7,324 bases of DNA from a virus. Its lineage: Duplodnaviria; Heunggongvirae; Uroviricota; Caudoviricetes. Position 1 is the stretch's first letter, and each line of letters starts with the position of its first letter. This document shows positions 3,001 through 6,000 of this stretch, one piece after another. The DNA lies in IMG/VR virus record IMGVR_UViG_2690316286_000009; one strand, written 5' to 3'. Made by a program: the position numbers.

Positions 3001-6000
3001 ATGTAGTTCGTTACGGCATTTACGGCATAACGGAATAACAAACAAATCATCAGCCTTTGTTCCCATCCCTCCCAGTCCATGACCAATGATGTGATGCGGA
3101 TCATCTGCCTGATTGCCACACGTCATGCATTTCTGCGTTTTTACCCAGCGCGTGTATACAGGCATCTCTTCCCGTTGTGATTTCTGGCGCTGGAGATACT
3201 GAGCCGGTGACTCCGGATCAACGGCAATGCTGACCACCGTCTTTTCCTGTGGTGGGTTCTGTTGCTGGTGGACGTGAGGCAGTAACGCAATATTTTTTGT
3301 GCGCTGCTTCAGTATGCTGGTGGCTGTCTGCTCTCCCGGTATGATGTCGCTTTCACTGTACACAGAGCGAATTTTTTCCGCACGCAACCCCAGCGAACGA
3401 CGTAATACCGCTTCCGGTAGCGCGTCCGCCACCTGATTGCGGACCGCCCACCAGGATAATTCAGCCAGAGATAATTCACGCTCCTGCGTACCGCTTATTG
3501 CGTGACCGATGACGTCAATCATCCATGCTGACAGGTTTTGATGAGCAAGTTGCTCGAGTGATTCGGATGTCTGGTCACGCAGCTGGTTGTCGCAGTGCCA
3601 GCACAACACCATTGCGCCGGTACCATAACGGTGAATGACGGTTTCGCTGTGATGATAATCGCCGTGTGGCCACTGGCAGGATTTAATATGGCGCAACAGC
3701 CAGTCAGACAATGCACCAGCACCACCAGCAGCACGAATCACCCGTGCGTTACTGAAAAACGGCAGCAATGTTTTGTCTTCCACCAGCGGCTGGCGAGCGG
3801 CAGGAACGACCCCGGACGGCAGATTACGCATGCTTTTTGGTTCCGGCTCCACCAGTATTCTGCCGTTATGGAATGCTGACATTGATTCACGGCCTGGCTT
3901 AACGATAACCAGACCGAGTTCCGGTACCAGAACAGGTCGAAGTAATACCCGCACATTACCTCCAGATCCGTTGCTGGAATGTGCGGGACGGACGCGTTGG
4001 CCGTTCGGAGTAAGGGAGCCTGACGGAGATTATCCAGTGACGGTAGTCGAGGCTAAGGGCTTTTTTAACCTCGCATCCGCGCCTGCGGTAACACTGAATG
4101 AGCCATTCGGCCTGTTCTTCAGTGCATGGGGGATGCTGGTACCAATCAGATTTAAATGCGTGAGAGCGCCGCCCGTGCCTGCTGGCAAAGACGGCTGAAT
4201 TATCAGAATTGTGTAGTCTGGAATTTTGCGCCATCGGCTTTCTCCGGTGGCACAGTGTTACTCAACAGGGGTTCAGCCCTGCGCTGAATTGTAGATGAAT
4301 TCACTCATCTTCAAAAGCAGAAAAACCAGCCTTAATCCCAGCTTCTTTCAGAGACGGCAACGATGTGACAAATTCATTTGCACGCGAAATAAAACCATCC
4401 GTCACAAGCCCATCCACAAAATGAATTAACGCAGCTCCACTCTTCCTTTGTTGAGACTGTAAACATTTAATACGGCAGTGGCTGACAATAGCGCCATTCT
4501 CAACGCGCACAGTATAGAGGCCATCTTCACTAAAAATTTCACGTAATTCTTCGATTTTCATCAACAGAATCCTTCCAGATAAATAGCACTCCCCTGTTCG
4601 GGGTCCATCCCTCTTCTCCCTGCGCGCTACTTAAGTATTTTTGATTCTATTCCGGCACCATCTAAAACTTCAAACGCGTTGAAAATAAAAACAAAAACCC
4701 GCCGAAGCGGGTTAAGTGTGGGTGCATTGAGGATGCCTGACCCATCAGAGGTGGCGAGGGATTTCTCCCCCGCCTGGTCTCTTACTCCTCAGGTTCGTAA
4801 GCTGTGAAGACAGCGACCTCCGTCTGGCCGGTTCGAATTCGTACCTCGCAGAGGTCTTTCCTCGTTACCAGTGCCGTCACTATGACGGTTAAACAGATGA
4901 CGATCAGGGCGATTAACATCGCCTTTTGCTGCTTCATAGCCTGCTTCTCCTTGCCTTTCGGCACGTAAGAGGCTAACCTAGATTTGCCGTTCATAGATTG
5001 AGCCTCAGATTAATGTTAAGCGTCTTGCCGGACGCGTAATGTTAACTGGGGCTTTTCTCTATCTGCCTTTTGGTGTTCATGCCTGANNNNNNNNNNNNNN
5101 NNNNNNNNNNNNAGCCTCAAGCACCCGCTGCAATTCTACTTAACTCTCCTTTTCCCGCAAACCGTTTTTATCCCCAGCGGCAAATCGAATACACCACCAG
5201 CGCCACCGCCATCGCAATTCCTACCGTGGTGAATGCCTCAGGCCAGGTCATTGATTCACCTCCTGCGGTGGTTCCGGTAGCGGCATCCAGTGAGTTGAGC
5301 TCTCTACTTCAACGCCGTCTTTGTCCACAAAAGCCATCTTATTCCCGCCACGAGTGGGGCAAAAAACCTTATCCCAGGAACCGGGGAATACATTCCCGAG
5401 ATCATCGAGAAGAATCACATCGCAATATTCAGCAGGAACTGCATCACTACAGCTTATCCAGCCAGCCGGAGCTACCGGAGAGTTGCCAGCCTTACGCATG
5501 GCCATTTCCACGATTTCAACCATATCTCCTGGTGGAATTTTACAAAGTTGCCCAATACATTTCTGCTGCCTGGCATATTCGAGAATGTGCTCCAGTTTGG
5601 TTCGATTAATCATTATTTATCTCCCTTAAGCATGGCAGCGCGGCAGGCGTTCCAGCCATCAACATAATCAAACGTATTACTATCGTTTGGCCCGATTTCA
5701 TCCGGCACTATCGGCTCTGGTTGGATAGTGACGTTGGCAAAGGCAGCACGCAAACCGGTTTTAATTTCTTCGATTTCATCAGAGCCAAGCGATGAATCTG
5801 ACAGTGCGTGATGGAATGCGTAAGCCATGTCGTCGTTTACTGCAACCGGCACTGCCGGCGCTGCGTAAAGCGGTGTTATATCTGCCCGAAAATCACATGC
5901 TTTATGCAGTCGTACCCAACACTCAACTTCCGCTTTGTCAAAATATATAGCAGTGAACGTATTAGATTCCTGGTCAACTTGAGTAAACGTCACCTTCCAC

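What the first reader, a model, noticed from the sequence alone, without database searches (positions are those of the whole stretch)
4684..5247. Hok-family toxin with no relBE partners and a roughly 310-nt leader of unknown regulation
In E. coli K-12, hokD is recalled as the third gene of the relB-relE-hokD operon and as lacking its own mok/sok control. Here only about 310 nt (26 of them N) separate the hok ATG from the upstream DUF551 gene, too short to hold relE and relB, so the toxin must be expressed and silenced some other way. The leader has a strong SD, an in-frame upstream ATG giving a 70-aa extension, two TAATGTTAA direct repeats flanking a hairpin, and a dedicated terminator. The -1 frame overlapping hok stays open for about 62 codons and ends 8 nt before the hok stop, as mok does, but has no ATG/GTG/TTG start. 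Whether an antisense Sok-like RNA or fold-back structure exists cannot be decided, partly because of the N run.
Basis: partly seen in the sequence, partly recalled or inferred. Interest (0 to 1): 0.5.

Follow-up and report, generated by a model that had tools for sequence, protein, structure and literature searches.

The report
Ordinary intact prophage hok/mok/sok locus
This is a complete, standard hok/sok toxin-antitoxin cassette of a lambdoid prophage, the same kind as the characterised hokW-sokW of Shiga-toxin phages, so its "mystery leader" is the well-known regulatory region and the finding is ordinary.

Summary
The "leader of unknown regulation" is the canonical hok/mok/sok control region.

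- **Rfam.** RF01794 (hok leader/sok) matches 5126-4932 on the minus strand at 73.8 bits, above the gathering score of 59.
- **Known relatives.** The region is about 92% identical to phage 933W and Sp5, where mokW, hokW and sokW are annotated. [quoted passage not shown]
- **mok.** The in-frame upstream ATG at 4994 is mok. It lies 57 nt before hok, exactly as in mokW and in K-12 mokC.
- **Sok.** The two TAATGTTAA repeats are the paired arms of the Sok hairpin (-29.9 kcal/mol, z = -4.9). The Sok promoter and hairpin are identical to those of sokW.
- **Fold-back.** In the predicted fold of the full-length mRNA, nucleotides 1-12 (tac) pair with the 3' fbi element at 4732-4720.
- **K-12 comparison.** K-12 hokD is the derived form. 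Its homology to this locus starts only 14 nt before the ATG, because relBE sequence replaces the leader.
- **The 26-N run.** It stands where over 100 relatives have 7 nt. One E. coli genome whose flanks match exactly has ATCTGTC there.
- **The -1 frame.** It has no start codon, is open in 7.6% of synonymous resamplings, and is closed in close relatives.
- **Frequency.** The leader occurs in 4138 of 5426 complete E. coli genomes and is not annotated there.

Verdict: already known, low interest.

The parts
5133..5160 (-). Presumed hok promoter: -35 TTGCGG (5160-5155), 16-nt spacer, -10 TAGAAT (5138-5133), 6 nt before the mRNA start
   Evidence: Read from the sequence. It is conserved in 933W and E. 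coli relatives. It falls below the threshold of the consensus scan, so the assignment rests on position and homology. Inferred.
4687..5126 (-). Full-length hok mRNA, about 420 nt if the N run is 7 nt. The 5' end is GGGUGCUUGAGG and the 3' end is the intrinsic terminator.
   Evidence: The Rfam RF01794 model begins at 5126. The terminator is at 4713-4687.
5115..5126 (-). tac element, the 5' end of hok mRNA
   Evidence: Invariant (entropy 0) in 91 unique viral-contig relatives. It pairs with fbi in the predicted full-length fold and with ucb in the Rfam consensus structure.
5087..5112 (.). Run of 26 N inside the 5' hairpin of the leader. Relatives have 7 nt here (ATCTGYC or GTCTGCC).
   Evidence: E. 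coli O177:H21 matches the 40 nt and 149 nt flanks exactly and has ATCTGTC. Of 105 viral contigs, 102 have 7 nt.
5046..5054 (-). ucb (anti-SD) box AAGCCCCAG, which pairs with the mok SD region in the closed form
   Evidence: In the predicted full-length fold the mok SD pairs with nt 56-60.
5003..5006 (-). mok Shine-Dalgarno GAGG, 8 nt before the mok ATG
   Evidence: It aligns with GAGG of the relatives.
4782..4994 (-). mok reading frame, in frame with hok: 70 aa, a 19-codon extension
   Evidence: It has the same geometry as 933W mokW (213 vs 156 nt) and K-12 mokC/hokC (210 vs 153 nt). The distance is 57 nt in 97 of 98 viral-contig relatives.
4782..4937 (-). hok toxin gene (HokD/HokW type, 51 aa), with SD GGAG at 4950-4947
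   Evidence: Pfam PF01848 at 82.9 bits. Annotated as hokD in E. coli genomes.
4720..4732 (-). fbi (fold-back inhibition) element CCUCAAUGCACCC, complementary to tac with one bulge
   Evidence: It is conserved even in a Citrobacter locus with a divergent hok CDS.
4687..4713 (-). Intrinsic terminator of hok mRNA
   Evidence: 7-bp stem, 5 G-C pairs, T-run.
4951..4979 (+). Sok promoter: -35 TTGCCT, 17-nt spacer, -10 TAACCT
   Evidence: It is 100% identical to the corresponding stretch of Sp5 and 933W. In Sp5, sokW is expressed from its own promoter and -10 mutations abolish protection (PMC8621323). It falls below the consensus-scan threshold.
4986..5056 (+). Sok antisense RNA, about 71 nt: a 14-nt single-stranded 5' tail over the mok start, then hairpin 5000-5054, then UUUU
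   Evidence: The ends are transferred from the 933W sokW annotation. The fold is -29.9 kcal/mol with z = -4.9 and 0 of 200 shuffles as stable. The TAATGTTAA repeats are the arms and pair through U.G and G.U.

Best explanation
The interval holds an intact hok/mok/sok type I toxin-antitoxin cassette of the hokD/hokW subfamily. It sits in the early/nin region of a Qin-like lambdoid prophage.

Proposed mechanism:
1. A weak promoter makes a stable hok mRNA of about 420 nt, starting near 5126.
2. In the full-length form the 5' tac element pairs with the 3' fbi element, and the ucb box covers the mok ribosome-binding site. The mRNA is then neither translated nor bound by Sok.
3. Slow 3' trimming removes fbi and the mRNA refolds, which exposes the mok start.
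4. A short, unstable antisense RNA, Sok, is made from the plus strand at about 4986-5056. It pairs across the mok start and blocks mok translation. It thereby also blocks the coupled translation of hok, and the duplex is degraded.
5. When Sok synthesis stops (loss of the element, prophage induction or host shut-off), the pool of processed hok mRNA is translated. Hok then damages the inner membrane.

Shown here by computation: family membership of the toxin and of the leader, homology to the annotated mokW/hokW/sokW, the in-frame mok, the Sok hairpin, and tac-fbi and ucb-SD pairing in predicted folds.

Inferred from the R1 and Sp5 literature: promoter use, exact RNA ends, 3' processing, translational coupling, RNase III cleavage and toxicity.
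For: - **Rfam.** RF01794 covers 5126-4932 (-) end to end, at 73.8 bits against a gathering score of 59, E = 1.9e-15.
- **Toxin.** Pfam HOK_GEF scores 82.9 bits.
- **Homology.** The region is about 92% identical to 933W, where mokW, hokW and sokW are annotated. Sp5 is identical to 933W over 460 nt.
- **Sok.** The promoter and hairpin in the window are identical to Sp5. The Sok fold has z = -4.9.
- **Predicted fold.** In the full-length fold, nt 1-12 pair with nt 376-388 (fbi), and the mok SD pairs with ucb.
- **mok.** It is in frame, 57 nt upstream of hok, as in mokW and K-12 mokC and in 97 of 98 viral relatives.
- **Conservation.** tac, the Sok hairpin and fbi are conserved across relatives.
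- **Frequency.** The leader is present in 4138 of 5426 E. coli genomes.
- **K-12.** hokD homology starts only 14 nt upstream of the ATG, and relE sequence lies before that point.
- **Synteny.** The gene order Q - DUF968 - rem - hok matches Qin.
Against: - No expression data exist for this window.
- Neither promoter reaches the simple sigma-70 consensus threshold.
- The 26-N run lies inside the 5' hairpin. If its length is real, there is a 19-nt insertion of unknown effect.
- The fold of a 3'-truncated mRNA gave the 5' metastable hairpin, not the tac/ucb stem.
- 5 of 100 mononucleotide shuffles also paired their 5' end with the 3' end. The fold alone is therefore weak evidence, and the case rests on conservation plus homology.
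- Several chromosomal hok loci tested in the literature did not mediate post-segregational killing (summary in bioRxiv 10.1101/2025.08.07.668861).
Confidence: 0.9

Rival explanations
1. The cassette looks canonical but is a decayed, non-functional copy, like several chromosomal hok loci of K-12. The cause could be an insertion hidden in the N run or subtle point mutations.
For: There are 26 N where all relatives have 7 nt. The literature summary says that the tested chromosomal hokA, hokB and hokC loci did not mediate post-segregational killing. K-12 hokC and hokD are visibly disrupted.
Against: Every recognisable element is intact and in register. The same leader allele is 100% identical in a complete E. 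coli genome over 149 nt. The same 12-mer allele is found in 18 of 120 viral contigs. The two odd-length N runs (26 and 338) look like scaffold gaps rather than real sequence.
Confidence: 0.08
2. Hok production is driven mainly by read-through from the upstream early prophage operon (DUF551 and the 27-aa ORF) after induction. The 5'-extended transcripts would escape tac-fbi folding. The toxin would then act as a lysis helper rather than as an addiction module.
For: No terminator-like site lies between the DUF551/27-aa ORFs and the hok leader. In Sp5, HokW appears after mitomycin C in a RecA-dependent way and doubles phage release (PMC8621323).
Against: The hok promoter-like hexamers and the exact tac 5' end are strictly conserved, which argues for a dedicated transcript. 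Takada et al. attribute activation to loss of sokW RNA. This reading complements the Sok mechanism rather than replacing it.
Confidence: 0.15
3. The 62-codon -1 frame (4977-4792) is a real R1-type mok, translated from a non-canonical start or by frameshifting.
For: It is the same relative frame as R1 mok and ends 7 nt before the hok stop. Its translation gives a faint, co-linear match to Pfam DUF5431 (E = 0.009, 16.6 bits against a cut-off of 27). DUF5431 is the name given to ORFs over the mok region of plasmid hok loci.
Against: It has no ATG, GTG or TTG. It is open by chance in 7.6% of synonymous resamplings. It is closed at codon 30 in close relatives L005 and L006, and after 4 codons in hokC. 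The faint match is expected from reading homologous hok DNA in the same shifted frame. The SD-preceded ATG is in the hok frame in 97 of 98 relatives.
Confidence: 0.02

Closest known systems
hokW-mokW-sokW of Shiga-toxin phages 933W and Sp5 (VT2-Sakai)
   Same: About 92% nucleotide identity across promoter, leader, CDS and 3' UTR. The Sok promoter and hairpin are identical. mok is in frame, 57 nt upstream. The tac and fbi elements are the same. Both sit in a lambdoid phage.
   Different: The Sok 5' tail and mok codons 2-5 carry a different allele (AACGGCAAATCT vs CTGAACACATGT). Four residues at the Hok C-terminus differ (TAYEPEE vs VDYESEK). The position in the phage map differs: here it lies next to rem, DUF968, rusA and Q as in Qin, while in 933W it lies near the right end of the genome.
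hokD (relF) of the E. coli K-12 Qin prophage, third gene of relB-relE-hokD
   Same: The Hok protein is identical. The SD, 3' UTR, fbi and terminator are nearly identical. The downstream neighbours are the same: rem (71% aa identity), a DUF968/ydfU-like gene and Q.
   Different: In K-12, homology stops 14 nt upstream of the ATG. The tac, ucb, mok start, Sok promoter -10 box and Sok body are replaced by relE/relB sequence. The window has the complete leader and no relBE.
hok/mok/sok (parB) of plasmid R1, the paradigm
   Same: The architecture and regulatory logic are the same: tac/fbi, ucb/mok SD, a Sok promoter between the mok and hok starts, and a Sok 5' tail plus hairpin. The leader fits the Rfam model built for this family. 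The mechanism is summarised in PMC9841398 and PMC4147584.
   Different: From my own recall of the R1 sequence, R1 mok is in the -1 frame, 58 nt upstream. Here mok is in frame, 57 nt upstream. HokW is 44% identical to R1 Hok (PMC8621323). The element is a prophage, not a plasmid.
hokC/mokC/sokC (gef) of E. coli K-12
   Same: mok is in frame with a 19-codon extension. The Sok 5' end lies 8 nt inside mok. The tac sequence GGGTGCTTGAGGCT is identical.
   Different: It is a chromosomal, non-prophage locus. The K-12 copy has IS186 immediately downstream of hokC, and beyond that point it does not align with the 3' UTR and fbi region of the window. Its Sok hairpin is shorter.

Membership tests
[quoted passage not shown] | Small Hok/Gef membrane toxin ORF | tested here: met
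   PF01848 at 82.9 bits against a cut-off of 22, covering 42 of 42 profile positions.
[quoted passage not shown] | Structured hok mRNA leader that fits the curated covariance model | tested here: met
   RF01794 at 73.8 bits against a gathering score of 59, model positions 1-157 of 157, ending at the hok AUG.
[quoted passage not shown] | Upstream overlapping mok reading frame with its own SD, whose start region is the antisense target | tested here: met
   GAGG lies 8 nt before the ATG at 4994, which is in frame with hok. The geometry matches the annotated mokW and mokC. Translational coupling itself was not tested.
[quoted passage not shown] | Cis-encoded antisense Sok RNA with its own promoter, a single-stranded 5' tail and a terminator hairpin | tested here: met
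   The promoter and hairpin are identical to the experimentally expressed sokW. The fold is -29.9 kcal/mol with z = -4.9. Transcription in this organism was not testable.
[quoted passage not shown] | Long-range tac-fbi pairing that closes the full-length mRNA | tested here: met
   The predicted fold pairs nt 1-12 with nt 376-388. Both boxes are conserved. The shuffle control is only moderate, at 5 of 100.
[quoted passage not shown] | Sequestration of the mok SD by ucb in the closed form, and a tac/ucb stem in the open form | tested here: inconclusive
   ucb-SD pairing is present in the predicted fold, and the tac/ucb helix is present in the Rfam alignment. The fold of a truncated mRNA gave the 5' metastable hairpin instead of tac/ucb.
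[quoted passage not shown] | 3' processing of hok mRNA, RNase III cleavage of the duplex, and toxicity relieved by Sok | not testable with these tools
   Toxicity and Sok-dependent protection were shown for the Sp5 homologue, with partial dependence on RNase III and Hfq (PMC8621323).
relB-relE-hokD operon (K-12 Qin type) | relB and relE immediately upstream and co-transcribed with hokD, with no own leader | tested here: not met
   The alignment with K-12 shows no relE or relB homology in the window. A full hok leader is present instead. A 26-N gap cannot hold about 530 nt.

The most novel reading that the evidence does not exclude
The one hypervariable spot in an otherwise nearly invariant leader is the 5-12 nt just after the mok ATG. 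It covers the extreme 5' end of Sok and the discriminator of the Sok promoter. There are 17 alleles among 120 viral contigs, and mean entropy is 0.83 bit against 0-0.06 for tac and the Sok hairpin.

This spot might act as a specificity code. It could keep the several hok/sok cassettes of co-resident lambdoid prophages from cross-silencing one another, or it could let one prophage neutralise another's toxin. The window carries a common allele (18 of 120).

The alternative is simple lack of constraint on four mok codons and a promoter spacer.
Probability: 0.3. Interest if true: 0.4.

Novelty: already known. Interest (0 to 1): 0.07.

Why it matters
It matters little as a discovery. The locus type has been annotated since the 933W genome record (AF125520.1) and was characterised in Sp5 in 2021.

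It is useful as annotation hygiene. RefSeq labels only "hokD" and leaves mok, Sok and the leader unannotated in more than 4000 E. coli genomes. That invites exactly this misreading. The K-12 relBE-hokD arrangement is the derived, truncated exception, not the reference state.

Tried and rejected
- **Consensus promoter scan.** It flagged neither the hok nor the Sok promoter. Both have only 3-4 of 6 matches per hexamer. The promoter calls therefore rest on identity to sokW and on conservation.
- **Fold of a 3'-truncated mRNA.** It did not reproduce the tac/ucb stem and gave the 5' metastable hairpin.
- **Shuffle control for 5'-3' closure.** 5 of 100 shuffles closed, so the fold alone is not decisive.
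- **The -1 frame as mok.** Rejected. It has no start codon, is open in 7.6% of synonymous resamplings, is closed in relatives, and gives only a faint below-threshold DUF5431 match.
- **Weak Rfam hits at 4692-4779.** isrK (25.7 bits against 50) and rsmX are below threshold and only reflect the terminator hairpin.
- **Filling the N run.** Every relative has 7 nt, and no relative with a 26-nt stretch was found. The true sequence of this isolate remains unknown.
- **Do co-resident loci carry different Sok-tail alleles?** Only three same-genome pairs were available. Two differ and one is identical, so the test has no power.
- **Family searches on the 27-aa ORF.** Pfam and NCBIfam gave nothing meaningful.
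Full report
**1. Checking the observation**

The hok gene is on the minus strand at 4937-4782. It encodes 51 aa (MKQQKAMLIALIVICLTVIVTALVTRKDLCEVRIRTGQTEVAVFTAYEPEE) and matches Pfam HOK_GEF at 82.9 bits.

- The upstream DUF551 ORF (5613-5248, Pfam 69.9 bits) ends 310 nt before the hok ATG.
- The N run is 5087-5112, 26 N. A second run of 338 N lies at 1204-1541.
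- The in-frame ATG at 4994 gives a 70-aa product, which is a 19-aa extension.
- TAATGTTAA occurs at 5011-5019 and 5037-5045.
- The -1 frame is open for 62 codons with no ATG, GTG or TTG. It stops 7 nt before the hok stop.
- A terminator-like site lies at 4713-4687.

The sequence observations are therefore correct.

**2. What the leader is**

A scan of the whole window against Rfam gives one hit above a gathering score. RF01794 ("sok") matches 5126-4932 on the minus strand at 73.8 bits (gathering score 59, E = 1.9e-15), covering model positions 1-157 of 157. The match is on the hok strand and ends at the hok AUG, so it covers the structured hok/mok leader that contains the Sok target.

Megablast against phage records finds 92 records. 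In the record of phage 933W (AF125520.1), the homologous region (about 92% identity) is annotated with three features:
- mokW, 213 nt, with the same stop as hokW;
- hokW, 156 nt;
- sokW, a 71-nt antisense RNA.

Sp5/VT2-Sakai is identical to 933W over the 460 nt compared. Takada et al. 2021 (PMC8621323) showed four things for Sp5 hokW-sokW:
- HokW is toxic.
- sokW expressed from its own promoter neutralises it, and -10 mutations abolish this protection.
- RNase III and Hfq contribute partially.
- The locus roughly doubles phage release after mitomycin C.

**3. Anatomy in window coordinates**

On the hok strand (minus):

| Element | Coordinates |
|---|---|
| -35 TTGCGG | 5160-5155 |
| -10 TAGAAT | 5138-5133 |
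| mRNA start, GGGUGCUUGAGG (tac) | 5126-5115 |
| N run | 5112-5087 |
| ucb AAGCCCCAG | 5054-5046 |
| mok SD GAGG | 5006-5003 |
| mok ATG | 4994 |
| hok SD GGAG | 4950-4947 |
| hok | 4937-4782 |
| fbi CCUCAAUGCACCC | 4732-4720 |
| terminator | 4713-4687 |

On the plus strand:

| Element | Coordinates |
|---|---|
| Sok -35 TTGCCT | 4951-4956 |
| Sok -10 TAACCT | 4974-4979 |
| Sok RNA (ends transferred from the sokW annotation) | about 4986-5056 |

Sok folds into a 14-nt free 5' tail plus one long hairpin followed by UUUU. The fold is -29.9 kcal/mol with z = -4.9, and 0 of 200 shuffles fold as well.

The two TAATGTTAA "direct repeats" are the two arms of this hairpin. UUAAUGUUA pairs with UAAUGUUAA through two wobble pairs, U.G and G.U. 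On the hok strand these become A.C and C.A mismatches, so the hairpin is stronger in Sok than in the hok mRNA.

The Sok promoter and hairpin are identical to Sp5.

I replaced the N run with the 7 nt seen in relatives and folded the full-length mRNA. Nucleotides 1-12 pair with nt 376-388 (tac-fbi), and the mok SD pairs with ucb. This is the closed, translationally inert form described for R1 (PMC9841398; PMC4147584).

**4. mok**

In this subfamily mok is in frame.
- mokW and hokW share their stop codon.
- The curated K-12 pair mokC (16751-16960) and hokC (16751-16903) also share their stop, with sokC starting 8 nt inside mokC.
- The 57-nt distance from mok ATG to hok ATG is found in 97 of 98 viral-contig relatives.

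The -1 frame does not behave like a gene.
- It has no start codon.
- It stays open in 7.6% of synonymous resamplings of the Hok sequence.
- It is closed at codon 30 in close relatives (L005, L006) and after 4 codons in hokC.
- Its translation gives a faint, co-linear, below-threshold match to Pfam DUF5431 (E = 0.009). DUF5431 is the name given to ORFs over the mok region of plasmid hok loci. The match is what one expects from reading homologous hok DNA in the same shifted frame.

**5. Relation to K-12 hokD**

Alignment shows that K-12 is identical or nearly identical to the window from 14 nt upstream of the ATG through the terminator. Upstream of that point it is unrelated and consists of relE sequence.

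K-12 therefore keeps only the hok SD, CDS, fbi and terminator. It has lost tac, ucb, the mok start, the Sok -10 box and the Sok body.

The window shares Qin's neighbours:
- a Rem homologue, 71% identical, at 4564-4301;
- a DUF968/ydfU-like gene;
- RusA;
- antiterminator Q.

The window is a Qin-like lambdoid prophage that still has the intact cassette. K-12 is the derived state.

**6. The N run**

All relatives examined have 7 nt between GGCT and TC(A/G)GGCAT.
- Eight loci from genomes and phages show this.
- 102 of 105 viral contigs show this.
- E. coli O177:H21 matches the window exactly over 40 nt on one side and 149 nt on the other, and has ATCTGTC.

The odd lengths of the two N runs (26 and 338) suggest scaffold gaps of estimated size. 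This is an inference. A real 19-nt insertion in the loop of the 5' hairpin cannot be excluded. Either way, relBE (about 530 nt) cannot be hidden there.

**7. How common it is**

The 149-nt leader segment is present at 80% coverage or more in 4138 of 5426 complete E. coli genomes, with up to 8 copies per genome. No feature is annotated under it. The larger 661-nt query hits 4751 genomes, and the CDS is labelled hokD. A recent survey found hok enriched in prophages (bioRxiv 10.1101/2025.08.07.668861).

**8. Verdict**

The interval is a standard, apparently intact hok/mok/sok cassette of the hokD/hokW subfamily. Novelty is "already known" and interest is low.

The only mildly interesting residue is the hypervariable stretch at the Sok 5' end and mok codons 2-5, with 17 alleles in 120 contigs. 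It could encode Sok-hok specificity among co-resident prophages. I could not test this with adequate power.

Noticed in passing
window 5251-5168 (minus strand): An unannotated 27-aa hydrophobic ORF (MTWPEAFTTVGIAMAVALVVYSICRWG). Its ATG overlaps the DUF551 stop (ATGA), which suggests translational coupling. It is kept in frame in 933W and E. coli relatives, with mostly hydrophobic substitutions (MTWPEAFANVGTVMAVVLVVYSICRWR). It takes up part of the supposed 310-nt leader. Pfam and NCBIfam give no hit, and it is not annotated in the RefSeq genomes inspected.
   Followed up: partly
window 4991-4980 (minus strand), i.e. mok codons 2-5, Sok nt 1-6 plus the Sok promoter discriminator: This is the only hypervariable stretch of the locus. 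There are 17 different 12-mers among 120 viral contigs, with mean entropy 0.83 bit against 0.0 for tac and 0.06 for the Sok hairpin. Some flanking columns were fixed by the search pattern. The window's allele AACGGCAAATCT is seen in 18 of 120. It may be a Sok-hok specificity determinant.
   Followed up: partly
window 4799-4796 (minus strand; TACG covering hok codon Tyr47 and the first base of the next codon): The Tyr47 codon lies in the motif CUUACGAA, and the TACGAA part is invariant in all aligned relatives, including a divergent Citrobacter hok and K-12 hokC. From my own knowledge, TACG is the core of the TadA editing motif. The Hok survey says that hokC, hokD and hokE mRNAs undergo TadA A-to-I editing that recodes Tyr to Cys at about this position. 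This copy would keep that site.
   Followed up: no
window 1204-1541: A second N run of 338 bases lies between the Q antiterminator gene (2518-1664, minus) and a DNA methyltransferase-like ORF (1017-82, minus). In a related E. coli prophage, tRNA-Ile and tRNA-Arg genes lie a little further downstream of hokD than the genes in the Q-equivalent position. The gap may therefore hide repeated tRNA genes or the late promoter region.
   Followed up: no
window 4301-4564 (minus strand): The 87-aa ORF just downstream of hok is a Rem homologue, 71% identical to K-12 Rem (E = 6e-41). Together with DUF968, RusA and Q it shows synteny with the K-12 Qin prophage.
   Followed up: yes
window 5000-5054, both strands: The hairpin is strand-asymmetric. 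The arms pair through U.G and G.U wobbles on the Sok strand, and these become A.C and C.A mismatches on the hok strand. The same DNA therefore makes a stronger hairpin in the antitoxin RNA than in the toxin mRNA.
   Followed up: partly
L004 (JAJXBQ010000377.1, a metagenome-assembled genome labelled Segatella copri), 1728-1776: An exact match to the enterobacterial hok leader sits at the end of a 1.8-kb contig binned into a Bacteroidota genome. This is most likely a binning contaminant.
   Followed up: no
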